A DNA stretch of 64,000 nucleotides from an uncultured Actinomycetes bacterium (GTDB taxonomy: Bacteria > Actinomycetota > Acidimicrobiia > IMCC26256 > DASPTH01), in contig CAWFXC010000001.1 in the NCBI GenBank assembly GCA_963819735.1, positions 1,865,415 to 1,929,414 on the forward strand. Reading direction: 5' to 3'. Shown here piece by piece: positions 8,545 to 58,349 of this stretch. The notes under the pieces are model-generated. The model was not told the origin of the DNA. It searched no databases and was given only the letters and a program-made list of their open reading frames with translations. The position numbers and the translations under genes were made by a program. Numbering within the stretch: position 1 is the stretch's first letter; every line of letters begins with the position of its first letter.

Positions 8545-9396
8545 ATGCAACGTCGACGCAGCGTGGTGCTCCTCGCGGTGCCCGCGGTCGTCTTCGTCCT
8601 GACCGCGGGCGTCGCCGTCGCCGCGGCGTGCACGAATCCGCCGACGACGACCGGGGCCGGCCGCCCCGTGACGACCAGCTCCGTCCCCGCAGTCCGTCCG
8701 GGCCAGTCGGGCCAGTCGGGCCAGTCGGGCCAGTCCGGCCAGTCGGGCCAATCGGGAGGCCAGCCGGGCGCGGGGAGCGCCGGCGACCACCAGTATCCGC
8801 AGCAGCACGATGACCACCCCTCCGACAGCTCGTCGGGGGGCACCTCCGGGGAACCGTCGCACCGCCCTACCGGCCCCCACGGCGACGGAGCCACCCCGGA
8901 GGCGCCCCCTGCCGATACCGGTGCCGGCGCGGCGAGCGCGCCCGGTGCCGTTCCGCAGTTGCCGGCGTCGGCATCCACCCCGGCCGCGTCCGGACCCGCC
9001 CTCGCGGGCGCGCCCGTAGTGCCGGCTTCACCGCCGGTCGTTGCCGCGCCGGCAACTGCGACTCCCGTGTTCGCGTCCACGCCCGTGGCCAACACGCCCA
9101 CCGCGCCGATCGCCGCGACCGCCGCGGCTGCGATCGCCGTGCCTGCGGCGGTGGCGCCGGCGGCATCCGCGTTCGACTTCGCGACGCTCCCCGACCTCGG
9201 CGCGATCGGCGTGCTCGGGACCGCGCCCTCTCCCGCGCACACGCTGCTCACGACGCCGGCGGCCCGTTCCCTGGCCGCGCTCATCGCCCTGGCGGCTGCG
9301 ATCGTCCTGTTCCTCGCCCTCCACGGCCTGCTCGACCGGCGTGATCCGAAGTTGATGGCCTCGGGGACCGGCCGGGACTTCGCCCGATTCCGGTGA
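8545..9396 (+). CDS. Secreted, C-terminally anchored Pro/Ala-rich low-complexity protein with a (GQS)n repeat
   Basis: 283 aa with the RBS CAGGAGGA. Has a signal-like N-terminus (VVLLAVPAVVFVLTAGVAVAAA), (GQS)6, long P/A tracts and a C-terminal TM segment (LAALIALAAAIVLFLAL). Confidence 0.55.
   Translation: MQRRRSVVLLAVPAVVFVLTAGVAVAAACTNPPTTTGAGRPVTTSSVPAVRPGQSGQSGQSGQSGQSGQSGGQPGAGSAGDHQYPQQHDDHPSDSSSGGTSGEPSHRPTGPHGDGATPEAPPADTGAGAASAPGAVPQLPASASTPAASGPALAGAPVVPASPPVVAAPATATPVFASTPVANTPTAPIAATAAAAIAVPAAVAPAASAFDFATLPDLGAIGVLGTAPSPAHTLLTTPAARSLAALIALAAAIVLFLALHGLLDRRDPKLMASGTGRDFARFR
8701..8754 (+). repeat. 9-bp tandem repeat (GGCCAGTCG x6, two copies with 1 mismatch) encoding (GQS)6
   Basis: Read directly from the sequence. 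It is in frame inside CDS 8545..9396. Confidence 0.9.
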
Positions 9397-10955: not shown

Positions 10956-11013
10956 CCTCTCGCACCCGTTCACCCGTCACCCGTCGCCCGTCCCCCGGCG
11001 ACCGGTGCGGGCG

Positions 11014-17501: not shown

Positions 17502-17534
17502 CGGTGGTGCACGGCGCGGGATACCCGCGCCGAC

Positions 17535-18247: not shown

Positions 18248-21200
18248 CCGCGCGCTCTTCCGCGCTGCCTTCGCCGGCCGTGCCGGACCCTGCGCCGGCC
18301 GTGCCGGACCCTGCGCCGGCCGTGCCGGACCCTGCGACTCCGAGAAACAGGAAGACGCACGACGCGACGGGTTCGCCGGTGGCGAGCTCGAGCGCGAGCG
18401 CGTACGACGCGCCCTGCAACCGGTAGCGGGCAACCTTCTCGTCGAGGTCGTGCTCGTCGCGCCACGCGTCGGTCTTGTAGTCGACGACGACCAAGCCGTC
18501 GGGGCCACGGAACACGAGATCCACGTAGCCCTCGAGCGTCGAGCCTCCCACCGGCGCGGCCACATACATCTCGCGGCGGAAACCGGCCGCGACCGCGGCG
18601 CGCACCGTGCGGGTGGTGAGCGCGGCGCGGGCCCTCGCCGCGATGTCGTGCTCCTTTCCGATGATCCCCTCGGCCGCGGCCTGCGCGGCCGCGGTGGCGT
18701 CGATGTCGTCACCGGTCGTGAGGTCGACGGTTTGCAACACCGCGTGCACTGCCCGACCGATCGCGGTGCCGTACCGGCCCTTGTTCCAGGGCGGCAGTTC
18801 GAGGTCGCGCGCGTCCTTGGCCAGGCCGGGATCGCGGCCCGCGGCTTCCACGGCCGCCGCGGCTTGTGCGCGTTCGGCCGCGGCCCGTTCGGCCGCCTCG
18901 CGGGCGATCGCAGTGGCGGCGCGGATGCGGGGCCGGGCGCCGTCGGCCAACGCCGAGTCGAGCGCGGTTCGCCATTCGGCCCACGGGAGGAGCGGCGGAG
19001 CCGGTTCGCCACCGGCGGGTGGCGGGAGCGGCGCCACCTGGCTCGGGTCGAGCGCGACCCAACCAGTCTGCCGCTCGGGCACGGAGCCGGCTTGCCGTTC
19101 GGGCCCGGATTCGGCGGCGTGCCAGATCAGCTGGGCGTGGGTCCAGCCCGTCTGGTCTTCGGCGTTGGGGGGCTTCGCCGGCCGGTGCACCGAGACCACG
19201 AGGTGATCGCGGGCGCGGGTCATGGCCACGTAGAGCAGACGCAGCTTCTCGTGGAAGTCCATCTGCTCGTCGATGGGCTGGTAGCGCTCGAACTCCTCGG
19301 TGGTCACCCGCGCCGACACCCGGAGCGCGTAGGTGTCGGAGTCGTGCGGGAACCGCAGCTGCACGCCCGCGGTGCGCCGTAGGGCCTTCGTGGTCATGCC
19401 CGACACGATCGTGATCGGGAACTCGAGCCCCTTGGCGCCGTGAATGGTGAGGATGCGCACCGCGTCGTCGTCGGTCTCGGGCAGCACCGTCTCCACCACC
19501 CGCGCGCCTTCGCTTCCTTGCAGGTCGGCCCACTGCAGGAAGTCGCGCAGGCTCCCGCCCTCGGCTTCGGTGAACGCGCGGGCCTGCTCGACGACGAACC
19601 GGACGCGGCGCCAGAGATCGCGGGGGCGTCCGTGGGCGAAGCCGACCTCGAGCACGCGCCGCTCCCGCACGATGCGGTCGAGCAGCTCGCTCGGTGAGAG
19701 CCACATCCGCGCGTCGTGCCACGCCGCGAGCGTGCGCATCGCCTCACCGACGGCGTGATCGTCGGGCAGGCTCGCGGGGAGGTCGGCCCGGTGGTCCCAC
19801 CGCCCGTGGTGCGCGACCTTGAACGTGTAGAGGTCGTCGTCGCCACAGCCGAACACGGGGGAGCGGAGCGCGCTGACCAGCGCGAGCTCGTCGGTCGGGT
19901 CGTCGACGGCCTGGAGCACGACGAGCAGGTCGCGGATTTCCCGGGTGCCGTAGACGAGCGACGACGTCTCGGCGCGGTAGGGGATGCCGGCCCCGTCGAG
20001 CGCATCCTCGAGTTGCCCGAGCGACGTGCGCGCGGGGATCAGGATGCAGATGTCGCCGAGGCGACACGGTGCCCAGCTGTCGTTGCCGCCGGCGTCGCGC
20101 GCGCCGACCATCCATTCGTCGGCCAGGGCGGTGCGGATGGTCGCGGCGACGTCGAGGGCTTCGAGCCGGCGCAGCTCGTCGGCGTTGCCGGCGTCGGGAT
20201 CGGGTTCGACGCCCAGCAGCACCACCGGGGGGCCGCCCGGTGCCGCATCGCGCACGGGTTCGAGCGCGACGTATTCGGGCTGCGACTCCGGTTCGGCGAC
20301 GATGAGCTCGCGGAACACGTGGTTGACGAACTCGATCACCGGACGCGCCGACCGGAAGTTGCGGGTGAGGTGGCGCGGCGCGGCGCCGAAGGCGGAGCGT
20401 GCGCGCAGGAAGGCCGCGATGTCGGCCCGGCGGAACCGGTAGATCGACTGCTTCGGGTCGCCCACGACGAAGAGGCGGCCGGGGTCGGCGGTGAGCTCGT
20501 CCCACCGGCGCTCACGCGCGTCGGGATCCCCCGACGCGAGGAGCGCGGCGAGATCGCTCTGGATCGGATCGGTGTCCTGGAACTCGTCGAGGAGCAGCCG
20601 GGTGTAGCGCGCCCGCAGGCGTTGCCGGACGTCCCAGCCGTGGTCCGGATCGCGCAGGACCGCCCGGGCGAGCACGAGGAGGTCGTGGAACTCGAGCTGC
20701 CCGCTGCGGCGGCGGGCGTCGGCTTCGCGCAGGGTGAACTGCGCGATCTCCCAGGCCAACCGCCTGACCACCAGCTCGGTGAACTGCTTCGTGATCGCGT
20801 CGACGTGCTTGCGCGCCGCCGCCACCGCCCCGCGCACCGCCGCGACGTCGGGCCAGTTCCCCTTCTGGCCCGCGTTTCCCCTGACCTTGGGCATTCCGGC
20901 AGTGAGCAGTCGCACCTGCTCGTACTCGTCGGGCGCGCTGGACACCTCGCGTCGCCAGTCGGCGATGGCGACGAGGCCGGCGAGGAGCTTGTCGGCCTCG
21001 TCGGTGCATTCCGCAGCGCGCGCAGTGAGCTCGTCGACCGCGGCGAACACTCCGTCGACCGGGAGGGGCGGGGGGTCGGGCTCCTCGTGCATGCGTTCGG
21101 CGACGAGGTCCCAGTTCGCGTTGCACGCGAGCGCCAGCGTGCGCAGCGTGTCGCGGCTCATGTCGGCGTTGAGCGCGAGCAGGAGCGGTCGTTCGAGGGC

Positions 21201-24879: not shown

Positions 24880-25013
24880 GGGTGGGATCGTACGGCGGGG
24901 GTGTGACGCCGTCGTCCGGGCCTGATCGGAGCAGATGGGAGGCGTCATCGGGGCCGTAATCGGGGACGTCACGGGATGGTGGATCCGAGAGGGGGACAGG
25001 TAGCTTCGGCCGG

Positions 25014-26015
25014 GTGAGCGGGGTCGTGGCAGAGGGCTTGGTCAAGCGGTTCGGCGAGTTCACTGCGCTCGACGGGGTCGACTTCAGCGTGGCCGAAGGC
25101 GGGCTCGCCGGGCTGCTCGGTCCGAACGGCGCGGGCAAGACGACCACCATCCGGATCCTCACCACGCTGCTCGATTTCGACGCCGGCCACGCGACCGTGG
25201 GTGGCTACGACGTGATGCGCGAGGCGCAACTCGTCCGCAGCATCATCGGCCTGACCGGCCAGTACGCGGCGGTCGACGACTACCTGACCGGTCGCGAGAA
25301 CCTCGTGCTGGTCGGCCGCCTCGGCCGCATGCGCAAGGCCCACGCGAAGGAGCGGGCCGCGCACCTGCTCACGCTCTTCGAGCTCGACTACGCAGCCGAC
25401 CGCGCGTTGCGCACGTACTCCGGGGGGATGCGCCGCCGCCTCGACCTCGCGGCGAGCCTCATGGTGGCCCCGAGCGTGCTGTTCCTCGACGAGCCCACCA
25501 CGGGCCTCGATCCGCGCAGCCGGTTGAGCCTGTGGGACGTCATCGCCGAGCTCAAGGTGGAGGGCACGACGATCGTCCTCACCACGCAGTACCTCGAGGA
25601 GGCCGACCACCTGGCCGAACGCATCAGCGTGATCGACGCCGGCCGGGTGATCGCCGAAGGCACGGCCGACGAGTTGAAGACGCTCGTCGGGGGCGACGTG
25701 CTGCACGTGGTGGTGGAAGACCGCGGCCGCCTCGCCGACGCGGTGGTGAGCATGGGCCGTGCCTTCGCGCTCGGGGAGCACGAGCTCACGTTCGATCCCG
25801 AACTGGGCACGGTCGTGATACCGGTCACGACCGGCGCCGCCGCACTCACCCACGCGTTGCGCAACCTCGATGCCGACGACATCGCGATCTCCGATCTCAG
25901 CCTCCGTCGCCCCTCGCTCGACGACGTGTTCCTCAGCCTCACCGGGCGCGCCAACGCCGAGGACCGTCCCGAGCAGGCGCTCCCCCGTCCGCTCAACCAA
26001 GGTCGCCGTGACTGA
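25014..26015 (+). CDS. ABC transporter ATP-binding protein (DrrA/ABC-2 exporter type)
   Basis: Has Walker A (GLLGPNGAGKTTT), the signature YSGGMRRRLDLA and Walker B (VLFLDEPTTGLD). Confidence 0.9.
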   Translation: MSGVVAEGLVKRFGEFTALDGVDFSVAEGGLAGLLGPNGAGKTTTIRILTTLLDFDAGHATVGGYDVMREAQLVRSIIGLTGQYAAVDDYLTGRENLVLVGRLGRMRKAHAKERAAHLLTLFELDYAADRALRTYSGGMRRRLDLAASLMVAPSVLFLDEPTTGLDPRSRLSLWDVIAELKVEGTTIVLTTQYLEEADHLAERISVIDAGRVIAEGTADELKTLVGGDVLHVVVEDRGRLADAVVSMGRAFALGEHELTFDPELGTVVIPVTTGAAALTHALRNLDADDIAISDLSLRRPSLDDVFLSLTGRANAEDRPEQALPRPLNQGRRD

Positions 26016-26865
26016 CACCAACGCCATCACCACCGGGGTGGAAGCCCCGCGGGTCGAGGAACGGGCCGCACTCCACCCGCGACGCGTCGCACTCGACATC
26101 TGGTTGCTCGCCGAACGGAACCTGATGAAGGTGTGGCGCAACAAGCGGCTCATCATCTTCTCGACCGTGCAGCCGATCATGCAGCTGATCCTGTTCGCGT
26201 TCGTGTTCGGTGCGATCGCCAACCTCGGCGACACCGGCCTCAGCTACAAGGACTTCGTCGTCCCCGCGGTGATCATCCAGACCATGGTGTTCACCGGCGT
26301 GCAGTCCGGCATCGGCATCGCCGACGACCTCCACACCGGGATGATCGATCGGTTCCGCTCGCTGCCGATCGCCCGCTCCGCGTTCCTCCTCGGCCGCACG
26401 GTCAGCGACACGCTGCGGCTCGCGTACCAGGTCATCCTGCTCTTGATCGCGGCGTCGATCATCGGCTTCCGCTTCCACGGGGGCGTTCTCGGCGCGGTGG
26501 CGATGCCGTTCGTCGCGGTGTTGTTCGGGATGTCGCTCATCACGTTCTCGGAGTACATGGGGCTCACGGTGCAGGATCCCGAGACCGTCCAGGCGGCCGT
26601 GTTCATCCCCCTCCTGCCCCTGATCTTCACCAGCTCGGCGTTCGCGCCGGTGTCGCGGCTGCCCGGTTGGATGCAGCCGATCGCGCGGGTGAACCCGGTC
26701 ACGTCGGCGATCGACACCGCGCGAGGTCTTGCGTTGGGCGACGACAATCTCTACCGCGTGAGCCAGGTGCACCTTTCGACGGCCGCGTTGCGCTTTGCCG
26801 GATCGGTCATCGCCATCACCGTGATCTTCACCGCGCTGGCGGTGCGCAAGTACCGCCAGGCCTGA
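26008..26865 (+). CDS. ABC-2 type transporter permease
   Basis: The GTG start overlaps the ATPase stop by 8 nt. Has six TM helices and ABC-2 membrane-protein features (RNKRLIIFSTVQPIMQLILF). Confidence 0.85.
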   Translation: MTDTNAITTGVEAPRVEERAALHPRRVALDIWLLAERNLMKVWRNKRLIIFSTVQPIMQLILFAFVFGAIANLGDTGLSYKDFVVPAVIIQTMVFTGVQSGIGIADDLHTGMIDRFRSLPIARSAFLLGRTVSDTLRLAYQVILLLIAASIIGFRFHGGVLGAVAMPFVAVLFGMSLITFSEYMGLTVQDPETVQAAVFIPLLPLIFTSSAFAPVSRLPGWMQPIARVNPVTSAIDTARGLALGDDNLYRVSQVHLSTAALRFAGSVIAITVIFTALAVRKYRQA

Positions 26866-26904
26866 CGTCGGGCTCCGACATCGGGTCTCGCGTCAGATCT
26901 CGCG

Positions 26905-27573
26905 TCAGCCTTCGACGGCGGTCGGGCCCACTGCGTTGCGGGCCTTGGCCGCGCACACGATGAGCTCGACGCAGGTGTCGATGTCGAGCGTCGTCGAGTC
27001 GATCACGAGGTGGTAGTGACAAGGGTCGCGCGCGTCGACCTTGTAGAAGTGCTTGACGTAGCCCTCGCGGGCCCGGTCGGTCTCCGCCAGGCGCTTGCGC
27101 GCCACCGCTTCGTCGACGCCCTCGTAGGCCGTTGCCCTCGCGACGCGACGTTCGACCGCGGCGTCGAGTCGCACGTGCAGCGCGGTGCGCTCGTTGGCCA
27201 GCACGATCGCGCCCGCTCGCCCGAGGATCACACCACCTCGCGTCTCCGCGATCTGGTGGAGGACGCGCTCGGTCTCATCGCGGAACGCCTGCTCCGGCTG
27301 GTCGGACAACGACGTCCGCGCGGTCGGGGCGGTGCCGAACACCGTGTCGGGGGCGGCGGCGGCGCGGGCGAGGCTGGCCAGCGCACGCCCCATGCCCGTC
27401 TTGCGGCGTTCGTCGTAGGCCATCGCGTCGGCCATGGGCACGGCCAGGGCCTCGGCGACCGCGACCGGGATCGCCCGATCGAGGAACGGCAGGCCGAGCC
27501 GCTCGGCCACCCGGGGCCCGATGAGGCTGCCCCCGGCGCCGAACGAGGCCGACAGGGTCACTACGGGCGCCAT
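26905..27573 (-). CDS. Cytidylate-kinase-like family protein (AAA-type NTPase)
   Basis: Start at the internal ATG. The N-terminal P-loop-like VVTLSASFGAGGSLIGPRVAERLGLPFLD and the overall length are typical of the Cytidylate_kin2 family. Confidence 0.6.
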   Translation of the reverse strand: MAPVVTLSASFGAGGSLIGPRVAERLGLPFLDRAIPVAVAEALAVPMADAMAYDERRKTGMGRALASLARAAAAPDTVFGTAPTARTSLSDQPEQAFRDETERVLHQIAETRGGVILGRAGAIVLANERTALHVRLDAAVERRVARATAYEGVDEAVARKRLAETDRAREGYVKHFYKVDARDPCHYHLVIDSTTLDIDTCVELIVCAAKARNAVGPTAVEG

Positions 27574-27626
27574 ACGTGCAGTCTGCCACCCCAGGGAAGC
27601 GGCGCGGCGAGCGCGAGACTCTGACC

Positions 27627-28286
27627 ATGACACCGTCGACGTGGATCGAGCGCCGGCAGTCGGCGCGGGCGCGAGTCCTCGTCGCCGCCGGGTTCGGTGC
27701 GGTCGCGGCGTTCGTCGCCTCGTGGTTCGCCCCGTGGCAGTTGACGGTGCTCATCGGCTGGGACGTCGCCGCGGTGCTCATGCTGGTGACGATCTGGACC
27801 TCGGTGGTCACCTTCTCGGCGGAGAAGACCGCCGCCTTCGCCACCCGCGAGGACGACACCCGGGCCGGTGAGCAACTGATCCTGCTCGGCGCCGCGGTCG
27901 TGAGCCTGGTGGGCGTGCTCGCCGCGTTCCTCAAGGCCAACCAGAGTGATCAGACCCTGCAGGCGATCCTCGAAGGCGTGGGCATCTTCACCATCGCCTG
28001 TTCGTGGGGGCTCGTGCACACCGTGTTCGCACTCCGCTACGCCCACCTCTATTACACGGCACCGGTCGGCGGCATCGACTTCAAGATGAAGGGCGTGGAT
28101 CCCGACTACCGCGACTTCGCGTACACCGCGTTCACCATCGGGATGACGTTCCAGGTGTCGGACACCGACATCACGCAGCAGGCCATGCGGCGCGCGGTGT
28201 TGCGGCACGCGCTGCTGTCGTTCCTGTTCGGCGCGGTGATCCTGGCCACCACGGTGAACGTGATCGCCGGGCTGCTCAACGGTTGA
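27627..28286 (+). CDS. DUF1345 membrane protein
   Basis: Start at the internal ATG. Has TM helices and the conserved C-terminal block DFAYTAFTIGMTFQVSDTD. Confidence 0.65.
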   Translation: MTPSTWIERRQSARARVLVAAGFGAVAAFVASWFAPWQLTVLIGWDVAAVLMLVTIWTSVVTFSAEKTAAFATREDDTRAGEQLILLGAAVVSLVGVLAAFLKANQSDQTLQAILEGVGIFTIACSWGLVHTVFALRYAHLYYTAPVGGIDFKMKGVDPDYRDFAYTAFTIGMTFQVSDTDITQQAMRRAVLRHALLSFLFGAVILATTVNVIAGLLNG

Positions 28287-28314
28287 CGAGGGTTGAGCAG
28301 CCCGACGAACCAAC

Positions 28315-28606
28315 TTGATGGTCGACTTCGCTGCGCCCGCCCGCCGCGAGTCGGTCGGCGGCGGGCAGGCTCCGCTTCGTCTCCGGTTTGATGGTCGACT
28401 TCGCTGCGCCCGCCCGCCGCGAGTCGGTCGGCGGCGGGCAGGCTCCGCTTCGTCTCCGGTTTGATGGTCGACTTCGCTGCGCCCGCCCGCCGCGAGTCGG
28501 TCGGCGGCGGGCAGGCTCCGCTTCGTCTCCGGTTTGATGGTCGACTTCGCTGCGCCCGCCCGCCGCGAGTCGGTCGGCGGCGGGCAGGCTCCGCTTCGTC
28601 TCCGGT
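28315..28606. repeat. Four perfect tandem copies of a 73-bp unit, each containing a 9-bp GC hairpin
   Basis: Units start at 28315, 28388, 28461 and 28534 with no mismatch. A degenerate partial fifth start follows (CTGACGG versus TTGATGG). Each unit holds GCCCGCCGC-gagtcggtcg-GCGGCGGGC. The array lies between convergent gene ends (28286 and 28616). Confidence 0.95.
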
Positions 28607-28615
28607 CTGACGGTG

Positions 28616-29539
28616 TTACCCGAGCCCGTTCTTCTTCAGGAACGCGGCGGCGACGTCGGCCGGGTCCTGCTTCTCGTTGCTGATGTCGAGCGACATCTTG
28701 TTGTAGGCGGCGGTGGTCAGCTTGGCCGAGACGGCGTTGAGCGTCTTGAGCGTGGCCGCGGTGGCCTTGTCCTTGCTGATCAGGAACACCGGGTTGTCGG
28801 CCGGCTGCAGGCCCTTGTCGTCGGTGAGCAGCACCGCGTCCTTCGGGATCACGCTGCTCCCGGTGAAGAGCAGGCCGACGTCGATGTCGCCGTCCTCGAG
28901 CGCCTGCACGGTGATCGGGCCTCCGGCGTCGAGCTTCTTCACGTCGGAGAACTTCAGGCCGTAGAGCGACGGTTCGTCGGGTCCGCCGGTGGTCGACGTG
29001 CCGAGGCACAGCGGTCGGGTGTCGCACTCCGGCGGTCCGCCGAAGGTCAGCTTGCTCGCCACCTTCTTCAGGTCGGAGACGGTCTTGAGCTTGTACTTCT
29101 TGGCCGTGTCCTTGGTCACGTAGAACCCGTTCACGTCGACCGCGGGCGCCGGCTTGCTGGCCACGATGCCGGTGCCGGCCAACTTGGCCTGGAGTGCCTT
29201 GTAGGTGGTGGCGGAGTCGCCGGTGGCCGTGCCGCCGAGGTACTCGAGCAGCGTGCCCTGGTAGTCGGCGTAGCCGTCGAGGTCACCGTTCTTGAGCGCC
29301 TGGTAGACGATCTCGGTGGCGCCCAGGTTGTCCTTGAAGCTGATGTCGTAGCCCTTGTTCTCCAGCGCCTGGCCGTAGGCCTGCGAGATGGCCTGCGCGC
29401 CCGAGAAGTCCTTGGACCCCACGGTGAGCGACTTGGTCTGGGCGCCGGCGCCGGTGGCGCCGACGGTGAGGGCCACGCCCAACGTGAGCACGCCGGCGGT
29501 GAGCACCGCCCACATGCGGCGGGTTCGAGCCTTGTTCAT
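28616..29539 (-). CDS. Glycine betaine/choline-type ABC transporter substrate-binding protein (OpuC/OsmF-like)
   Basis: 307 aa with a signal peptide (MWAVLTAGVLTLGVALTVGATGAGA). LTVGSKDFSGAQAISQAYGQALE and DGYADYQGTLLEY are typical of OpuAC-fold binding proteins. Confidence 0.85.
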   Translation of the reverse strand: MNKARTRRMWAVLTAGVLTLGVALTVGATGAGAQTKSLTVGSKDFSGAQAISQAYGQALENKGYDISFKDNLGATEIVYQALKNGDLDGYADYQGTLLEYLGGTATGDSATTYKALQAKLAGTGIVASKPAPAVDVNGFYVTKDTAKKYKLKTVSDLKKVASKLTFGGPPECDTRPLCLGTSTTGGPDEPSLYGLKFSDVKKLDAGGPITVQALEDGDIDVGLLFTGSSVIPKDAVLLTDDKGLQPADNPVFLISKDKATAATLKTLNAVSAKLTTAAYNKMSLDISNEKQDPADVAAAFLKKNGLG

Positions 29540-29654
29540 CGAGTCCTGTCCTTGGTTCTGCCGCGGTTCCGGCGGGTGGGAGCGGTCGGCGCAGGTGTGC
29601 CGGTTGTCCCGGAACGGAAAGCTTACCCAGTTGGTCAGATTTCGTGACGTCGCC

Positions 29655-30413
29655 TCAGAGCACGGGCTCGAACGAGTCGCTCCTCACCGTCTCCCACGCC
29701 CCCGGCGCGGCGACGTCGCGTCCGCCCCGGAGCCCGGGCGACACCAGGAGCCGCTGGACCAGGGCCAGCGACAGCTCGACCGCGATCGCGAGCAGCGCGA
29801 CCAGGAGGCCGCCTGCGAACACCTTCACGTTGTCGTTCACCGCGAAGCCGTCGACGATGTACCGACCGAGCCCGCCGGAGTCGACGTAGGCGGCGAGCGT
29901 CGCGGTGGCGACCACCGCGACCGCGGCGGTACGGATGCCCGCCATCACGATCGGCAACGCGATCGGCAGCTCGACGCGGGTGAGCATCTGTCTCGCGTTC
30001 ATTCCCATGCCCCGCGCGGATTCGCGGATCTCGTCGTCGACCCCGGCGACGCCCACGTACGCGTTGGCGAGCATCGGCGGCACCGCCAACGCGAACATGG
30101 CGATGAACGCCGGCACCGATTGCACCGGCGTCAGCACCCCGGTGGGGTCGCCGATGCCGACCCACTGCACCGCCAGGATGAGGAGCGCCAGCGCCGGGAG
30201 CGCCCGGCCGATGTTGGCGATGTTGACCGCCACCGCGCCGCCCGTCCGCACGTGTCCCAACACGAGACCGATCGGGAGCGCGACCAGCGCCGCCGCGAGC
30301 ACCGACGCGACCGTGAGCTGGATGTGCTGGAGCATCAGGGTGGGGATCCCCTCCCTGCCGTGCCATTGCGCGCCGTCGGTGAGGAAGTCGGCGACCTTGG
30401 AGAGGAACCCCAT
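29655..30413 (-). CDS. Osmoprotectant ABC transporter permease
   Basis: Start at the ATG overlapping the upstream permease stop (TGATG). Has a BPD-type permease with an EAA-like loop (ESARGMGMNARQMLTRVELPIALP). Confidence 0.85.
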   Translation of the reverse strand: MGFLSKVADFLTDGAQWHGREGIPTLMLQHIQLTVASVLAAALVALPIGLVLGHVRTGGAVAVNIANIGRALPALALLILAVQWVGIGDPTGVLTPVQSVPAFIAMFALAVPPMLANAYVGVAGVDDEIRESARGMGMNARQMLTRVELPIALPIVMAGIRTAAVAVVATATLAAYVDSGGLGRYIVDGFAVNDNVKVFAGGLLVALLAIAVELSLALVQRLLVSPGLRGGRDVAAPGAWETVRSDSFEPVL

Positions 30414-31111
30414 CAGGCGGCCTGCTTCCGCCGACGGCCGGCGCGCTGCCACGGAGTGGCGATGCGTTGGGCGCCGACCAGCAACAGGTCGGCGACGATC
30501 GCGAGCAGGAGTGACAGCACGATGCCGACGGTGAGGGGCGTTCGGAACGCGCGCTGGAGGCCGTCGAGCATGAGCGCGCCCAGACCGCCCTGCCCGATGA
30601 GCGCGGTCACGGCGACCAGCCCGATGGTCGTGACCGTGGCGATGCGGATGCCGGTGATGATCGCCGGTAGCGCGATGGGCAGCTCGACCCGCAACAGCTG
30701 CCGGTTCCTCGAGTACCCCATGCCCTCCGCCGCGTCCTTCACGTCGGTGGGAACGGCGTCGAGGCCCGTCACGGTGTTCCGCACGAGGATGAGCAACGTG
30801 TACGCGGTGAGGGGAATCAGCGCCGTCACGCGCGACAGACCGGTGAGCGGGAGCAGCATCGCGAACAGCGCGAGCGACGGGATGGTGTACAGCACCCCGG
30901 TGATCGCGATCACCGGACCGTAGAGACGGTGGTAGCGGACGCTCAGCAGCGCGAGGGGCAACGCGATCACGAGCCCGAAGAAGACGGCGAGCACGGTGAG
31001 CTCGATGTGTTCACCCAGGCGGGCCCGGATCTCGTCGGTGTGCTCGGTGACCCACGGCCAGTAGAGCCATTTCGGGCCGATGTCCTCGGCCAGCACGAGC
31101 AGGTGGCTCAT
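30413..31111 (-). CDS. Osmoprotectant ABC transporter permease
   Basis: Start MSHLLVLAEDIG at 31111. Has the EAA-like loop DAAEGMGYSRNRQLLRVELPIALP. The long upstream extension of the ORF (to 32146) is antisense to the ATPase gene and was rejected. Confidence 0.85.
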   Translation of the reverse strand: MSHLLVLAEDIGPKWLYWPWVTEHTDEIRARLGEHIELTVLAVFFGLVIALPLALLSVRYHRLYGPVIAITGVLYTIPSLALFAMLLPLTGLSRVTALIPLTAYTLLILVRNTVTGLDAVPTDVKDAAEGMGYSRNRQLLRVELPIALPAIITGIRIATVTTIGLVAVTALIGQGGLGALMLDGLQRAFRTPLTVGIVLSLLLAIVADLLLVGAQRIATPWQRAGRRRKQAA

Positions 31112-31171
31112 CGCTGGATCGTAACGGGCGGGTAACGTCCGCCGATCGGCTCCGCCCCCACCTCCGCCTCC

Positions 31172-32395
31172 ATGATCCGCCTCGAGCGGATCGGCAAGCA
31201 GTACCCGAACGGGCAGGTCGCGGTGCGCGAGTTGTCGCTCGACATCCCCACCGGCGAGATCTGCGTGCTCGTCGGGCCGTCGGGGTGCGGCAAGACCACG
31301 ACGCTGAAGATGATCAACCGGCTCATCGAGCCGACCTCGGGCCGCATCTTCCTCGACGGCGACGACGTGACCCACACCGACCCCGTGGAGTTGCGCCGCC
31401 ACATGGGGTACGTCATCCAACAGATCGGGCTGTTCCCTCACCAGACCATCGCCACCAACATCGCGACCGTCCCCAAGCTGCTCGGTTGGTCCAAGGACCG
31501 GATCACGGCGCGTACCGACGAGCTGCTGGATCTCGTCGGCCTCGACCCGTCGGTCTACGGCGAGCGGTACCCCGCGCAGTTGTCGGGCGGGCAGCGGCAG
31601 CGCGTCGGGGTGGCGCGCGCGCTGGCTGCCGACCCTCCCGTTCTGCTCATGGACGAGCCGTTCGGCGCGATCGACCCGGTGACGCGCGTGCGGTTGCAGG
31701 ATGAGTTCCTGCGCCTCCAGAGTGAGGTCAACAAGACGGTGGTGTTCGTCACCCACGACATCGAGGAGGCGGTGAAGATGGGCGACCGCATCGCCATCCT
31801 CGACGTCGGCGGGATCCTCGAGCAGTACGCCACGCCGGCGGAGATCCTCGGGCGCCCGGCGTCGCCGATGGTGCGCGACTTCGTCGGCCGCGACCGCGCG
31901 CTGAAGCGCCTGCGCGTGACGCCGATCGACCCGGCCTGTCTGGAACACCCGCCGACCGTCGCACCCGCGGCCACCCTGGCCGAGGCCCGGCGCGCGATCG
32001 AGCAGACGACGGAGCGCTGGGTGGCGGTGGTCGACGCCGACGGTGTGCTGCACGGCTACGTCGACGAGTCCCGCCTCAGTGGCGATGGCGCGGGCGATGG
32101 CGATGGCGCGGGCGACGGCGAAGGCGACCGCTCGGTCGCCGATCACGTCCAGCGGATCGACACGTGGGTACCGCTCGACGGCGACCTCCAGGACGCGCTC
32201 GCGACCATGCTCCTCACCCGCGTCGGCTGGGTGTCGGTGATCGACGACGACCGGTTCCTCGGTGTGCTCACCCCGGAGGCGGTGTACCGCACGCTGCGGA
32301 AGTCCCTCGGCGACGCCGGGCCCGATGGTGGCGCGCTCGATGACGGCGCGCCCGCGGGTGGCGCGCTCGACGATGACGCGGCCGCGGGAAACTAA
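31172..32395 (+). CDS. Osmoprotectant ABC transporter ATP-binding protein with a C-terminal CBS pair (OpuCA/OpuAA-like)
   Basis: Has Walker A (GPSGCGKTTT), LSGGQRQRVGVARAL and LLMDEPFGAIDP, followed by a CBS-domain region. It is divergent from the permease genes across a 60-bp gap. Confidence 0.9.
   Translation: MIRLERIGKQYPNGQVAVRELSLDIPTGEICVLVGPSGCGKTTTLKMINRLIEPTSGRIFLDGDDVTHTDPVELRRHMGYVIQQIGLFPHQTIATNIATVPKLLGWSKDRITARTDELLDLVGLDPSVYGERYPAQLSGGQRQRVGVARALAADPPVLLMDEPFGAIDPVTRVRLQDEFLRLQSEVNKTVVFVTHDIEEAVKMGDRIAILDVGGILEQYATPAEILGRPASPMVRDFVGRDRALKRLRVTPIDPACLEHPPTVAPAATLAEARRAIEQTTERWVAVVDADGVLHGYVDESRLSGDGAGDGDGAGDGEGDRSVADHVQRIDTWVPLDGDLQDALATMLLTRVGWVSVIDDDRFLGVLTPEAVYRTLRKSLGDAGPDGGALDDGAPAGGALDDDAAAGN
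32081..32128 (+). repeat. 18-bp in-frame tandem repeat (about 2.7 copies) encoding GDGAGD GDGAGD GEGD inside the CBS region of the ABC ATPase
   Basis: GGCGATGGCGCGGGCGAT, then GGCGATGGCGCGGGCGAC, then GGCGAAGGCGAC, read directly. A second duplication of about 30 bp encodes GGALDDGAPA / GGALDDDAAA near 32326..32385. Confidence 0.85.
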
Positions 32396-37701: not shown

Positions 37702-39978
37702 ATGACTGCGTGGCGTCTGGGTAGGGTGACTGACGTGGCGCCCGTCGCGGAACTTCACGCCGACCGCTACGAGTTGGGGGACCGCATCGGTGCGGGCGGC
37801 ATGGGCGAGGTCTACCGCGGCCGCGATCTGCTCCTCGAGCGCGCGGTGGCGATCAAGATCCCGACCGCCGAGATCACGCCGAGCTCCGCCGAGCGGTTCA
37901 AGCGCGAGGCGAGGGCCGCGGCCCGGCTGAACCATCCGAACGTCGTCGGCGTCTACGACTGGGGCGGGGGCGCCACCCCGTTCATCGTGATGGAGTTCGT
38001 CGACGGACAGAGCCTGCGGGCGGTGCTCCACGAGCGGGATCGCCTGGATCCCGACGAGGTGGCGCTGATCGGCGCGCAGATCGCCGACGCGCTGGCGCAC
38101 GCTCACGCGCACGGTGTGATTCACCGCGACGTCAAGCCCAGCAACGTCCTGCTGACCCCGGCCGGCGAGGTCAAGGTCACCGACTTCGGTATCGCGCTGT
38201 CGGCCACCGGCGAAGCGCTCACCGAGCCCGGCGTCGTGCTCGGGACTGCGGGTTACCTGTCGCCGGAGCAGGTCGCCGGTCTCCCGGTCGACGCCCGCAG
38301 CGACGTGTACTCACTCGGCATCGTCCTCACCGAGCTGCTCACCGGCAGCCGGCCCACCGGGGGCGAGCCCGCGCCGACCACCGAGTTGGAGCGCATCGTC
38401 GCCCGGGCCCACGCCGCCGACCCGAACGCGCGGTTCCCGCGTGCCGCGGAGCTGCGCGACGCCCTGCGCGCGGTGGCGACCACCGGCGACACCCCGATCA
38501 CGGCCGCCGTCGTCGTGGTTCCCACCGCGTCGTCACGCGCGCCCGCCGCCGCGGCCGGGGCGGCGGTCGCGCCCGCCGCCACGACGACGGCCCGGGTCGG
38601 TGCGGCCACCTCGGTGATGCCGGCGGCGCCCGCCCCCGACGCGCCCGCACCCGTCGTCGTCTCGTCGGGTGGCACTCCCGCGCCCGCCGCACCACCGCGC
38701 GCGGTTCCCGTCGCCGGCGCGGCGCTCGCCGCCGCCGTCGTGGCCGCGGCTGCCGCGGCACCCTCCCCGGCATCCGCGGTCCCCGCGGTGAAGCGTCGGT
38801 GGTTCCGGTCGCGCCGATCCGCATCCACGAAGCCGGTCGCAACGCCGAAGCCGGTGAAGATGCCCACGTCGGTCAAGCGCTCGAAGCCGGTGAAGCTCGC
38901 GAAGCCGGTCAAACCGCTGAAGCCACCCAAGCCGAAGCGCGGCCGCCGGCCGCGCGGTGCCACCACCACGCCGGCGGCGACGCCGATCGCCGCGTCCGTG
39001 CTCGCCGCGCCGCCACCTTTCGCGGCTCCGTCGTCGCCCGCGCCCGCGGCCCCCGCTTCGCCGTCGCCCAAGCGCACGTGGCGGGCCCGGCACTTCGCGG
39101 TGATCCTCGCCGCGCCTCTCGTGCTCGTCGTTGGCGGCGTGGTCGTCTACGCCAAGCTCAGCGAGCACGCACCGAGCGTCGCGGTGCCCGATGTGGTCGA
39201 TCGCGATGTCTTCACCGCCGCCGCCACCATGAAGCAGGCGGGCTTCGAGATCGATGTCACCGCGGTCGACAGCGCGCAGCCGGGCGGCATCGTCGTCACC
39301 CAGAAGCCGGCGAACGGGCAGAAGCTGGAACAGGGATCGACGGTGCACTTCGGTGTGAGCAGCACCAGCGCGATGGTGCCCGACGTCGTCCATCTCGACG
39401 AGCCGGCCGCGATGGCGGCGCTCGCCGCGAAGGGCCTGAGCAACGTCACCGTCACCGACGACTACCGCGGCGACATCGATCCGGGCACCGTCGTGAGCGC
39501 GTCGCCCGCGCCGTTCTCGAAAGCGTTGAAGAACCAACCGCTCACGCTGGTGGTCGCGCGCGATCCCCACGTGACGCTGCCCAACCTCGTGGGGAGCGAT
39601 CAGGCCGCGGCGATCCAGTCGCTCCACGACATCGGGCTCGAGGTCGCGATCCAGACGTCGACCAGTCGCAGCGCGCCGGCCGGGCAGGTGCTCAAGGCGA
39701 GCCCTGCGGTCGACGCGGTCGTGCTGCGCGGCAGCACGGTCACGCTCACTGTGTCGACCGGTCCGAAGCTGGTCACCCTGCCGTCCAAGGTCACGTTCGA
39801 CCGTGACGACGCCATCTCCGATCTCGAGGACCGGGGCTTCAGCGTGATCGTCACCAGCGCGCCGTCGTCGAGTGATCAGAACGGCACCGTGATCGCCCAG
39901 AACCCGCCCGGCGGCAAGGTCGCCGAAGGGTCCACGGTCACCATCACCGTGGGGGTCGGGCAGTCGAAGGGCCGGTAG
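37702..39978 (+). CDS. Ser/Thr protein kinase with four extracellular PASTA domains (PknB-like)
   Basis: Has the kinase motifs GAGGMGEVY, AIK, HRDVKPSNVLL, DFG and SPEQ. Followed by an Ala/Pro-rich linker, a Lys/Pro repeat region, a TM helix (FAVILAAPLVLVVGGVVVYA) and four PASTA-like repeats. The start (ATG 37702) is uncertain. Confidence 0.85.
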   Translation: MTAWRLGRVTDVAPVAELHADRYELGDRIGAGGMGEVYRGRDLLLERAVAIKIPTAEITPSSAERFKREARAAARLNHPNVVGVYDWGGGATPFIVMEFVDGQSLRAVLHERDRLDPDEVALIGAQIADALAHAHAHGVIHRDVKPSNVLLTPAGEVKVTDFGIALSATGEALTEPGVVLGTAGYLSPEQVAGLPVDARSDVYSLGIVLTELLTGSRPTGGEPAPTTELERIVARAHAADPNARFPRAAELRDALRAVATTGDTPITAAVVVVPTASSRAPAAAAGAAVAPAATTTARVGAATSVMPAAPAPDAPAPVVVSSGGTPAPAAPPRAVPVAGAALAAAVVAAAAAAPSPASAVPAVKRRWFRSRRSASTKPVATPKPVKMPTSVKRSKPVKLAKPVKPLKPPKPKRGRRPRGATTTPAATPIAASVLAAPPPFAAPSSPAPAAPASPSPKRTWRARHFAVILAAPLVLVVGGVVVYAKLSEHAPSVAVPDVVDRDVFTAAATMKQAGFEIDVTAVDSAQPGGIVVTQKPANGQKLEQGSTVHFGVSSTSAMVPDVVHLDEPAAMAALAAKGLSNVTVTDDYRGDIDPGTVVSASPAPFSKALKNQPLTLVVARDPHVTLPNLVGSDQAAAIQSLHDIGLEVAIQTSTSRSAPAGQVLKASPAVDAVVLRGSTVTLTVSTGPKLVTLPSKVTFDRDDAISDLEDRGFSVIVTSAPSSSDQNGTVIAQNPPGGKVAEGSTVTITVGVGQSKGR

Positions 39979-46502: not shown

Positions 46503-46582
46503 GAGGTCGCGCGTCGGTGGTGGTGAAGATCACCGACCGGTACTGCGTGCCGAAGGCGCGAGGAGCGCGCGGGGAAACTGGT

Positions 46583-47017
46583 TCAGGCGCCGGAGACGCC
46601 GCGCAAGGTGGGCAGCGGGGCCTGCACCGCGTCCTTCTTCTGCTCGTCCTTCTTCTGCTCGTCCTTCGCCTTGTCCTTCTTCTTCTTGCTCTTGTGTTTC
46701 TTGTTCTTGTGCTTCTTCTTTTTCTTCTCGTGCTTGTCCGCGTCCGCGTCGGCGGGTGAGATCGAGGTGGGCGGTTCGTCGGTGAGTGGGCGCACCGGTT
46801 CGAGCACCACCGGGTTGGGGATCAGGCCGACGAGATGCTGCACGCGTTCCCGCAGATCGCGGATGTCGCCCATGAGCTGATCGAGTTGCTGTTCGAGGTC
46901 TTCGGGTTCGAACAACACGCGGCCGGGCAACTGCGGCTCGTGGCCGGCCGGGGTCAGCGAGTCGAGGACATCTTCCAGGCTCCGGCCGAGCCCGGCTTGT
47001 CGCTCCATGTCGTGCAC
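46583..47017 (-). CDS. Hypothetical protein with an acidic coiled N-terminal half and a Lys-rich tail
   Basis: 144-aa ORF (GTG at 47017; an ATG at 47008 preceded by GAAGG is more likely). The tail reads DKHEKKKKKHKNKKHKSKKKKDKAKDEQKKDEQKKD. No family recognised. Confidence 0.5.
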   Translation of the reverse strand: MHDMERQAGLGRSLEDVLDSLTPAGHEPQLPGRVLFEPEDLEQQLDQLMGDIRDLRERVQHLVGLIPNPVVLEPVRPLTDEPPTSISPADADADKHEKKKKKHKNKKHKSKKKKDKAKDEQKKDEQKKDAVQAPLPTLRGVSGA

Positions 47018-54781: not shown

Positions 54782-55051
54782 ATGGGAGACTTGTACGCGG
54801 GCCGTATCTCGTTCGACAGCTCGGACGAAACCGTCTACATGCAGATCTCGATCGACGATCTCGATTCGGCCGCCTGGATCGGAGTCGAACCCAGCGGCCA
54901 CACCGTCCCCGGGATCACCGAGAAGGGCAACTACGTCGTGAAGTTGCTCGAGGACGCCCATCCGCGACGCGGGCAGACGGCCCGGGCCGAGATCCAGAAC
55001 GAGGTCGAGGACGGCGTGTTGCGCCTCGTCGGCCAGACCGCCTTCAGCTGA
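54782..55051 (+). CDS. Hypothetical small protein
   Basis: 89-aa ORF with an ATG start, no clear RBS and no motif. Confidence 0.3.
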   Translation: MGDLYAGRISFDSSDETVYMQISIDDLDSAAWIGVEPSGHTVPGITEKGNYVVKLLEDAHPRRGQTARAEIQNEVEDGVLRLVGQTAFS

Positions 55052-55080
55052 CGTCGTTCAGCTGAAGGGCGATCGTCTCG

Positions 55081-58292: not shown

Positions 58293-58349
58293 GTCGAGCC
58301 CGCGGGCTCGGGGCGCGGGCTCGGAGTCCGGCGCTCGGGTCGGACGCGG

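What the first reader, a model, noticed from the sequence alone, without database searches (positions are those of the whole stretch)
28315..28606. Four perfect 73-bp tandem repeats, each with a GC hairpin, in a convergent intergenic region
**What the sequence shows.**
- Units start at 28315, 28388, 28461 and 28534 and are 100% identical, followed by a degenerate partial fifth start.
- A period of 73 is not divisible by 3, so the array cannot be a simple coding repeat.
- Each unit carries GCCCGCCGC-(10 nt)-GCGGCGGGC.
- The array fills almost the whole gap between the DUF1345 gene (ends 28286, plus strand) and the betaine-binding protein gene (ends 28616, minus strand).

**Interpretation.** Perfect identity implies very recent expansion or concerted homogenisation.

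**Possible roles.**
- A MIRU/VNTR-like minisatellite.
- A stacked bidirectional transcription or mRNA-decay barrier.
- A protein-binding array.
Basis: seen in the sequence. Interest (0 to 1): 0.6.

Follow-up and report, generated by a model that had tools for sequence, protein, structure and literature searches.

The report
Copy-variable tandem repeat of a hairpin
Four identical 73-base copies of a hairpin-forming stretch lie between two genes that end facing each other in an uncultured Acidimicrobiia bacterium; a close relative has two copies at the same spot, so this is an ordinary variable-number tandem repeat built from a gene-end hairpin.

Summary
Four exact 73-bp units lie at 28315-28606, followed by an 8-nt partial fifth. 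They sit between the DUF1345 gene (+) and the last gene (OpuAC) of an osmoprotectant ABC-transporter operon (-).

Each unit holds a GC-rich stem-loop. It folds better as minus-strand (opu-sense) RNA: -42.2 kcal/mol (z -4.1) against -36.1 (z -0.7).

- **Copy number varies.** A metagenome contig about 94.5% identical (L007) has two copies at the same place. An ~80% relative (L012) has one unit with a different hairpin plus a hairpin-less partial unit. More distant relatives have 44-117-bp spacers and no array.
- **Copies are homogenised.** Copies within a genome are more alike than orthologous copies, which means recent expansion or concerted evolution.
- **No sign of dispersal.** I found no other copy in 139 kb of related DNA, the GTDB representative genomes, JGI metagenome contigs, IMG/VR, plasmids or phages, and no Rfam match.
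- **Local context.** Other convergent gene ends in the window carry single GC hairpins without U tracts. A second, conserved hairpin (28268-28304) overlaps the DUF1345 stop codon.

Best reading: a lineage-specific minisatellite made by amplifying the gene-end hairpin module. It is not a MIRU, REP or BOX family member. Function is inferred, not shown. Interest is low to moderate.

The parts
27627..28286 (+). DUF1345 membrane-protein gene. The probable true start is ATG 27627 (219 aa). The longest ORF starts at 27576.
   Evidence: Pfam PF07077, E 1.2e-55. All homologues are about 219 aa and align from residue 18 of the long ORF.
28268..28304 (.). Hairpin H0: a 13-bp perfect stem, CGGGCTGCTCAAC / GTTGAGCAGCCCG, with an 11-nt loop that contains the DUF1345 stop codon.
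   Evidence: RNA fold -28.5 kcal/mol (+, z -5.4) and -30.7 (-, z -5.9). It is the longest perfect stem in the window. It is kept in L007, and in L004-6 with a compensatory G-C to C-G swap.
28315..28387 (.). Repeat unit 1 (73 bp); stem-loop at 28336-28369.
28388..28460 (.). Repeat unit 2; stem-loop at 28409-28442.
28461..28533 (.). Repeat unit 3; stem-loop at 28482-28515.
28534..28606 (.). Repeat unit 4; stem-loop at 28555-28588.
28607..28614 (.). Partial fifth unit, CTGACGGT. It keeps the C that L007 has at the junction (CTGATGG), so it looks like the older, non-homogenised end of the array.
28616..29539 (-). Osmoprotectant (glycine betaine-type) ABC-transporter substrate-binding protein gene, the last gene of the operon. 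The array is its immediate 3' flank.
   Evidence: Pfam PF04069, E 1.2e-46. Homologues are named osmoprotectant transport system substrate-binding protein.
29655..31126 (-). Two ABC permease genes upstream in the same operon (29655-30452 and about 30413-31126). The ATPase gene (31172-32395) is divergent.
   Evidence: Pfam PF00528 for both permeases; PF00005+CBS for the ATPase. The same order is seen in L001, L004, L007 and L014.

Best explanation
This is a lineage-specific, copy-number-variable minisatellite.

**Origin.** A 73-bp piece of the spacer between two convergent genes has been amplified head to tail. The piece consists of an opu-proximal flank (GGAGACGAAGCGGAGCC in opu sense), a 34-nt GC-rich stem-loop, and a distal flank (GCGCAGCGAAGTCGACCATCAA). 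Amplification was by replication slippage or unequal recombination, seeded by the short direct repeat GGT(T/C)TGA(T/C)GG that now bounds the array.

**Function of the hairpin (inferred).** The hairpin is this organism's ordinary kind of gene-end signal: a strong stem-loop without a U tract at convergent 3' ends. Transcribed as the 3' UTR of the opu operon, it would stop or pause RNA polymerase and block 3'-to-5' exonucleases. On the other strand it would face read-through from DUF1345, which also has its own hairpin, H0.

**Function of the extra copies (inferred).** They give a redundant stack of the same stem-loop. They are most likely a nearly neutral by-product of repeat instability rather than a designed device.

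**Shown:** the array, its hairpin, its position, the copy-number difference between relatives, and the homogenisation of copies.
**Inferred:** termination or RNA-stabilising function, which strand it serves, and neutrality of copy number.
For: - **Exact array and hairpin:**
- **Position:** the array starts 1 nt after the stop codon of the last opu gene.
- **Strand bias of the stem:** the opu-sense RNA unit folds at -42.2 kcal/mol (z -4.1, 0 of 200 shuffles as good), against -36.1 (z -0.7) for the other strand. This is because a G.U pair on one strand is a C.A mismatch on the other. The whole array gives z -5.0 against -0.1.
- **Same locus in relatives:**
  - L007 (94.3-94.7% nt identity over 10 kb) has 2 units with period 73, one of them with a 6-nt deletion.
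  - L012 (about 80%) has one unit with conserved flanks but a different hairpin, plus a 34-nt unit without a hairpin.
  - L014, L004-6 and L001-3 (82-86% aa OpuAC) have 52-, 44- and 117-nt spacers with remnants of the flanks only.
- **Homogenisation:** there are three fixed differences between the window's copies and L007's copies and none among the window's four.
- **Pattern at other convergent gene ends:** 17512-17532, 46505-46540, 55041-55068, 58295-58323 and H0 are GC hairpins of -14 to -28 kcal/mol with no U tract. The unit hairpin is -24 to -27.
- **Precedent:** multi-hairpin REP arrays in E. coli 3' UTRs act as partial terminators and mRNA stabilisers and give a ladder of transcripts (bioRxiv 10.64898/2026.03.23.713779). 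Hairpin clusters without U tracts have been proposed as terminators in many phyla (PMC8355165).
Against: - There is no canonical intrinsic terminator on either strand.
- The T-rich tail (10 of 25 nt, against a 15.5% background) is on the + strand and starts well downstream of the stem. The better stem is on the - strand, so the two cues disagree about which transcript is served.
- There are no expression data of any kind.
- The hairpin module is dispensable in relatives (L004, L014, and the proximal unit of L012).
- The copy number of 4 rests on one assembly whose reads I cannot see.
- I could not scan the rest of the source genome, so dispersal there is not excluded.
Confidence: 0.6

Rival explanations
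1. The array is one locus of an interspersed repeat family of this lineage (MIRU-, REP/BIME- or BOX-like, possibly mobile). The copies seen here are only one site among many in the genome.
For: - The unit size (73 bp), the internal GC-rich inverted repeat and the tandem copy-number variation all resemble MIRUs as summarised in PMC3184786.
- The array is bounded by a short direct repeat, GGT(T/C)TGA(T/C)GG.
- At MIRU density (about 40-50 per genome) a 64-kb window would hold under one further locus, so absence from the window is weak evidence.
Against: - There is no other copy in the window (blastn) or in 139 kb of window plus related loci (nhmmer profile).
- There are 0 exact hits for the 28-nt hairpin, or for a flank-gap-flank pattern, in the representative genomes of 185,579 species.
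- JGI metagenome contigs gave only 3 chance hits.
- IMG/VR, plasmids and phages gave 0 hits.
- The unit flanks are orthologous spacer sequence in relatives, which points to in-place duplication rather than insertion.
- The genes are convergent, not co-transcribed.
Confidence: 0.12
2. The hairpin has no function at all. The whole array is neutral junk DNA that happens to contain a palindrome, kept only because the spacer between convergent genes tolerates it.
For: - Relatives do without it (L004 and L014).
- One L012 unit lacks the hairpin.
- There is no U tract.
- The plus-strand fold is no better than shuffles.
Against: - Strong hairpins recur at convergent gene ends throughout the window.
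- L012 keeps a hairpin of different sequence at the same place.
- H0 shows a compensatory change.
- The G.U against C.A asymmetry favours an RNA-level stem.
Confidence: 0.18
3. The copy number is an assembly artefact: a perfect repeat wrongly expanded or collapsed. The true genome has a different number of units.
For: - Four perfectly identical 73-bp copies (292 bp) exceed a short read's length.
- I cannot see the reads.
- The relative L012 comes from a visibly error-prone assembly with frameshifts.
Against: - An independent assembly (L007) also has a tandem array, with two distinguishable copies at period 73, so the tandem structure itself is real.
- OpuAC's exact match P0001 is on record on a 2,607,212-bp contig, which suggests long-read data. 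That this contig is the window's source is inferred.
Confidence: 0.08
4. The array works at the DNA level as a phased protein-binding array, or it encodes small proteins.
For: - 73 bp is 6.95 helical turns, so the units present the same face of the helix.
- Each junction has TGATG (overlapping stop and start), which gives 48-aa ORFs spanning two units on the + strand.
Against: - No known motif, promoter-like site or Shine-Dalgarno sequence precedes the ATG.
- The ORFs read the same DNA in all three frames and give Arg/Gly/Ala-rich strings typical of non-coding high-GC DNA.
- L007's second copy has a 6-nt deletion, and the junction changes to CTGATGG.
- The end of two convergent genes is an odd place for an operator array.
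Confidence: 0.02

Closest known systems
Bacterial VNTR / minisatellite loci in intergenic DNA (for example the non-MIRU ETR/VNTR loci used for MLVA typing)
   Same: Head-to-tail units of tens of bp in an intergenic spacer. Copy number differs between close relatives, and copies are homogenised within a genome.
   Different: None in kind. This one is in an uncultured Acidimicrobiia lineage, and its unit is a gene-end hairpin module.
MIRUs of the Mycobacterium tuberculosis complex (Supply et al. 1997, as summarised in PMC3184786)
   Same: The phylum (Actinomycetota), a 40-100-bp unit, internal GC-rich inverted repeats and tandem copy-number variation.
   Different: MIRUs occur at about 40-50 loci per genome. 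They lie between co-transcribed genes and carry ORFs that overlap the neighbouring genes' ends. Here the genes are convergent, no ORF overlaps a gene end, and no second locus was found.
REP/BIME arrays in E. coli 3' UTRs (for example the 12-hairpin REP325)
   Same: Arrays of GC-rich hairpins without U tracts in 3' UTRs, including between convergent genes. They have been shown to act as partial terminators and mRNA stabilisers and to give ladder-like transcripts. This is the best model for how the array may work.
   Different: REPs form a dispersed family (355 annotated REPs) of alternating Y and Z palindromic units. Here all units are direct, identical and apparently at a single locus.
Pneumococcal BOX elements (boxA-boxB(n)-boxC) and SPRITE
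   Same: boxB is a module present in variable tandem number. Longer arrays vary more between strains. SPRITE is a terminator-like repeat enriched at convergent 3' ends (PMC3049150).
   Different: Both are interspersed families with terminal modules or inverted repeats. Neither feature is seen here.
Hairpin-cluster / U-tract-less ('I-shaped') terminators proposed for high-GC bacteria
   Same: Several strong stem-loops lie within about 80 nt or more of a stop codon, with no U tract (PMC8355165).
   Different: Those clusters are made of unrelated hairpins, whereas this one is a single hairpin copied exactly. To my knowledge the efficacy of U-less terminators in Actinobacteria is disputed; no paper was checked here.

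Membership tests
VNTR / minisatellite | Head-to-tail tandem copies of a unit of about 10-100 bp | tested here: met
   4.1 copies, period 73, 99% matches. The four full copies are exact.
VNTR / minisatellite | Copy number differs between related genomes at the orthologous locus | tested here: met
   Window 4.1; L007 2 (94.5% nt identity); L012 about 1.5; L014, L004 and L001 none.
MIRU | Unit of about 40-100 bp with internal GC-rich inverted repeats | tested here: met
   73 bp, with a 9-13-bp GC stem.
MIRU | Interspersed at tens of loci in the genome | tested here: inconclusive
   There are 0 further copies in 139 kb of related DNA and 0 hits in genome contigs. The rest of the source genome could not be read.
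MIRU | Lies between co-transcribed genes, with unit ORFs overlapping the ends of the neighbouring genes | tested here: not met
   The genes are convergent. The DUF1345 stop is 28 nt before the array and OpuAC is on the other strand. The TGATG-linked ORFs touch neither gene.
MIRU | Sequence similarity to MIRU consensus sequences | not tested
Exact-pattern scans of genome contigs found nothing, but they are not a similarity test.
REP / BIME | Short imperfect palindrome in extragenic DNA, usually a 3' UTR | tested here: met
   A 34-nt imperfect palindrome directly after the opu operon.
REP / BIME | Hundreds of dispersed copies with a species-wide consensus, and arrays of alternating orientation | tested here: not met
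   All units are direct. There is no other copy in 64 kb, where E. coli-like density would give several.
REP / BIME | Associated RAYT (IS200/IS605-like) transposase in the genome | not testable with these tools
Canonical intrinsic (Rho-independent) terminator | GC-rich stem-loop | tested here: met
   -24.1 kcal/mol (+) and -27.2 (-) for the hairpin alone.
Canonical intrinsic (Rho-independent) terminator | U tract immediately 3' of the stem | tested here: not met
   The scan finds none in the spacer. The + tail is CTCCGCTTCGTCTCCGGTTTGATGG, and the - tail has 2 T in 25 nt.
CRISPR array | Repeats separated by unique spacers of similar length | tested here: not met
   The units abut with no spacer.
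BOX element | Distinct terminal modules (boxA, boxC) around the tandem module, at many loci | tested here: not met
   The array's flanks are orthologous spacer or gene-end sequence, and there is no second locus.
Described RNA family (Rfam 15) | Match to a covariance model | tested here: not met
   0 matches at E <= 1 in 27000-30000, both strands.

The most novel reading that the evidence does not exclude
The number of hairpin units may be a heritable, quickly mutating 'dial' on the 3' UTR of the osmoprotectant-uptake operon. On this reading, each added stem-loop raises mRNA stability or termination efficiency, and slippage gives sub-populations with different opu (and DUF1345) expression. That would be a contingency locus acting through a 3' UTR rather than through a promoter or a coding frame. 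Alternatively, the unit could be the first seen locus of an undescribed interspersed repeat family of Acidimicrobiia.
Probability: 0.1. Interest if true: 0.5.

Novelty: new member of a known kind. Interest (0 to 1): 0.25.

Why it matters
**Practical use.** It is a strain-level length marker (4, 2 or about 1.5 copies) for an uncultured Acidimicrobiia lineage. It also marks a place where short-read assemblies will break or collapse.

**Biological point.** It shows a gene-end hairpin module being amplified in place. It adds a data point that this high-GC lineage marks convergent gene ends with U-less hairpins.

**If copy number mattered.** If copy number proved to change opu mRNA level, it would be a simple natural example of 3'-UTR tuning by repeat instability. 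Nothing here shows that.

Tried and rejected
- **Retrieving the source genome.** Exact-protein look-ups of OpuAC, both DUF1345 start variants, P0001 and P0125 all returned nothing on record. I therefore could not scan the rest of the genome or see reads.
- **Genome contigs.** The 28-nt hairpin and a flank-N{20,45}-flank pattern both gave 0 hits.
- **Metagenome contigs.** The 22-nt hairpin core gave 3 hits with no flank similarity, which I take as chance. The collection evidently does not hold L007's contig.
- **Other collections.** IMG/VR, PLSDB plasmids and INPHARED phages gave nothing, so there is no sign of a mobile-element origin.
- **Rfam at E <= 1.** Nothing.
- **Canonical terminator or promoter scan.** Nothing in the spacer.
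- **Coding repeat.** Rejected. 73 is not a multiple of 3, and the 488-aa minus-strand ORF 27561-29027 across the array is a high-GC artefact that overlaps two real genes.
- **CRISPR.** Rejected, because there are no spacers.
- **L011.** This contig places the DUF1345 stop 4 nt from the stop of a truncated OpuAC. I could not tell a true deletion allele from a chimeric contig, so I did not use it as a '0-copy' allele.
- **L013.** It has a different downstream gene and is uninformative.

Full report
**1. The observation**

The sequence shows four exact 73-bp units at 28315-28387, 28388-28460, 28461-28533 and 28534-28606. Shuffles of the window give 0.00 expected matches. TRF reports 28315-28614, period 73, 4.1 copies, score 586. 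It is the only long-period array in the 64 kb.

An 8-nt partial fifth copy (CTGACGGT against TTGATGGT) ends one base before the TAA stop (28618-28616) of the minus-strand gene.

The window is 70.6% G+C. The flanking genes are:
- DUF1345 (PF07077, E 1e-55), ending at 28286 on the + strand;
- an OpuAC-type osmoprotectant-binding protein (PF04069, E 1e-46), ending at 28616 on the - strand.

OpuAC is the last gene of a permease-permease-binding-protein operon. The ATPase gene of that transporter is divergent. Homologues are named as coming from Acidimicrobiia / Acidimicrobiaceae MAGs.

**2. Anatomy of a unit**

Read in opu sense (minus strand), the unit is:

ACCGGAGACGAAGCGGAGC-CTGCCCGCCGC-CGACCGACTC-GCGGCGGGCGG-GCGCAGCGAAGTCGACCATCAA

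The DNA palindrome is 9 bp, GCCCGCCGC / GCGGCGGGC. As opu-sense RNA the stem extends through a G.U pair to 12-13 pairs. On the other strand the same position is a C.A mismatch.

| Fold | opu sense (-) | DUF1345 sense (+) |
|---|---|---|
| Whole unit | -42.2 kcal/mol, z -4.1 | -36.1 kcal/mol, z -0.7 |
| Hairpin alone | -27.2 kcal/mol | -24.1 kcal/mol |
| Whole spacer | z -5.0 | z -0.1 |

Neither strand has a U tract next to the stem. The + strand has a T-rich stretch (10 of 25 nt, against a 15.5% background) starting several bases downstream. The - strand has none. The + strand of the unit is T15/A4, and its right flank is purine-poor (C8 T6 G4 A0). So the stem favours the opu transcript, while the flank composition looks more like a signal for the DUF1345 transcript. 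I cannot decide between them from sequence.

**3. A second hairpin, outside the finding's coordinates**

The 28 nt between the DUF1345 stop and the array are the 3' arm of H0. H0 is a perfect 13-bp stem at 28268-28304, whose 5' arm is the last codons of DUF1345 (z -5.4 and -5.9). It is the longest perfect stem in the window.
- H0 is present in L007.
- H0 is present in L004-6 with a compensatory change: GCTGCTC/GAGCAGC becomes GCTCCTC/GAGGAGC.

So DUF1345 has its own conserved gene-end hairpin.

**4. Pattern at other convergent gene ends**

Other convergent gene ends in the window each carry one GC-rich hairpin without a U tract: 17512-17532, 46505-46540, 55041-55068 (overlapping a stop codon) and 58295-58323. 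These fold at -14 to -23 kcal/mol. The unit's hairpin is of this kind. What is unusual is only that it is present four times.

**5. Relatives**

The source contig could not be retrieved. OpuAC's exact match, P0001, is on record on a 2,607,212-bp contig. Orthologous loci were obtained through homologous proteins. Gene order (opu operon, then convergent DUF1345, then a cytidylate-kinase-like gene) is conserved.

| Locus | Identity to window | Spacer | Repeat content |
|---|---|---|---|
| Window | - | 329 nt | 4.1 units + H0 |
| L007 | OpuAC 97% aa; 94.3-94.7% nt over 10 kb | 161 nt | 2 units at period 73, identical hairpin, distal copy lacks 6 nt; H0 present |
| L012 | about 80% nt; noisy long-read assembly | about 106 nt | 1 unit with alignable flanks but a different hairpin, plus a 34-nt unit with the flanks fused and no hairpin |
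| L014 | 86% aa | 52 nt | no array; remnant of the opu-proximal flank |
| L004-6 | 84% aa | 44 nt | no array; remnant of the distal flank, plus H0 |
| L001-3 | 82% aa | 117 nt | no array; two unrelated hairpins |

The unit is therefore native spacer sequence that was duplicated in place. Copy number differs between close relatives.

**6. Homogenisation**

The window's four copies are identical, but they differ from both L007 copies at three positions:
- CGCT**G**CGCC here against CGCT**T**CGCC in L007;
- the junction **T**TGATGG here against **C**TGATGG in L007;
- CTCC**GG**T here against CTCC**TG**T (or CTCCTCGTG) in L007.

The window's partial fifth copy keeps the C at the junction. This is the signature of recent expansion from one variant unit, or of concerted evolution. 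The short direct repeat GGT(T/C)TGA(T/C)GG at both ends of the array is a plausible slippage seed.

**7. Dispersal and mobile-element tests**

- The window holds no further copy.
- A profile search of 139 kb (window plus all loci) finds only the known units.
- The representative genomes of 185,579 species hold neither the 28-nt hairpin nor a flank-gap-flank pattern.
- JGI metagenome contigs gave only three chance hits.
- IMG/VR, plasmids and phages gave none.
- Rfam has no match.

Caveat: at MIRU-like density a 64-kb window would hold fewer than one other locus, and I could not read the rest of the genome. Dispersal within the source genome is therefore unlikely but not excluded.

**8. What it is and how it probably works**

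The structural verdict is firm: this is a copy-number-variable minisatellite formed by amplifying the gene-end hairpin module of the opu/DUF1345 spacer.

The functional reading is inferred. Each unit, transcribed as the opu 3' UTR, forms a strong stem-loop that impedes RNA polymerase or 3' exonucleases. From the other side the array and H0 face DUF1345 read-through. The closest working model is the E. coli REP/BIME arrays. These are U-less hairpin arrays in 3' UTRs that act as partial, partly Rho-dependent terminators and as stabilisers of the upstream mRNA. They yield a ladder of hairpin-ended transcripts, and between convergent genes they correlate with higher expression of both genes (bioRxiv 10.64898/2026.03.23.713779). 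Hairpin clusters without U tracts have also been proposed as terminators across phyla (PMC8355165).

Relatives manage with one hairpin or none at this position. The extra copies are thus most likely a nearly neutral product of repeat instability.

**9. Comparison with known families**

- **MIRU.** It is not a member. The size, GC-rich inverted repeat and VNTR behaviour match. The defining context does not: MIRUs lie between co-transcribed genes, their ORFs overlap the gene ends, and there are about 40-50 loci per genome (PMC3184786).
- **REP/BIME.** It is not a member. All units are direct, and no dispersal was found.
- **BOX.** It is not a member. There are no terminal modules (PMC3049150).
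- **CRISPR.** Excluded, because there are no spacers.
- **Coding repeat.** Excluded. 73 is not a multiple of 3. The TGATG-linked 48-aa ORFs have no ribosome-binding site and read the same DNA in three frames.

**10. Verdict**

The finding is real and accurately described, and it is now explained as an ordinary kind of feature: a new member of the class of bacterial intergenic VNTRs, here built from a gene-end hairpin.
- Interest: 0.25.
- Most novel reading not excluded: copy number acting as a fast-mutating dial on opu expression, or a new interspersed family.
- Probability of that reading: about 0.1.

Noticed in passing
window 28268-28304: A perfect 13-bp hairpin (H0) pairs the last codons of DUF1345 with the spacer, with the stop codon in the loop. 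It is conserved in L007. In L004-6 it is conserved with a compensatory G-C to C-G swap. The window's loop is 10 nt longer than L007's.
   Followed up: yes
window 17512-17532, 46505-46540, 55041-55068, 58295-58323: Other convergent gene ends each carry one GC-rich hairpin without a U tract. The one at 55041-55068 overlaps a stop codon, as H0 does. This looks like the lineage's usual gene-end signal.
   Followed up: partly
window 10963-10997: A heptamer tandem repeat, CACCCGT x4.9 (89% matches), lies inside another convergent spacer (about 10956-11013), next to a hairpin.
   Followed up: no
window 27576-27633: The longest DUF1345 ORF starts at GTG 27576. All homologues are about 219 aa and match from ATG 27627. 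The long form would overlap the divergent cytidylate-kinase-like gene (26905-27633, minus) by 58 nt.
   Followed up: partly
L011 1019-1090 (JGI 3300086342): In this 92%-identical contig, the DUF1345 stop is followed after 4 nt by the stop of an OpuAC gene truncated after about residue 90. About 700 nt and the whole spacer are missing. This is either a deletion allele or a chimeric assembly.
   Followed up: partly
L012 4264-4276 against window 24919-26905: The ~80% relative lacks the ABC-2 exporter gene pair that lies upstream of the cytidylate-kinase-like gene in the window and in L007. L012's opu genes also carry many frameshifts, so the assembly is error-prone.
   Followed up: no
not in window (protein P0125): A DUF1345 protein 77% identical to the window's is recorded on a contig of 2,607,212 bp, the same length as the contig carrying the exact OpuAC match P0001. 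It is probably a paralogue elsewhere in the same genome. Its locus could not be fetched.
   Followed up: partly
L001 6919-7035: This relative's 117-nt spacer has two different strong hairpins bracketed by a direct repeat, GCGAGCGGACGCG (about 80 nt apart). This DR-hairpin-DR layout could seed a tandem duplication like the one in the window.
   Followed up: no
window 18268-18336; 8699-8756; 46630-46739; 38823-38924: Short-period tandem repeats (21 nt x3.3 at 97%; 9 nt x6.4; a CTT-rich 15-21-nt set; 36 nt x2.8). At least the first and third lie within crude GC3-based gene calls, so they may be coding repeats. They were not examined.
   Followed up: no
window 27561-29027 (minus): A 488-aa ORF runs through the whole array, because the minus strand of the unit has no stop codon in two frames. 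It overlaps both real genes and is a high-GC artefact that could mislead gene callers.
   Followed up: yes
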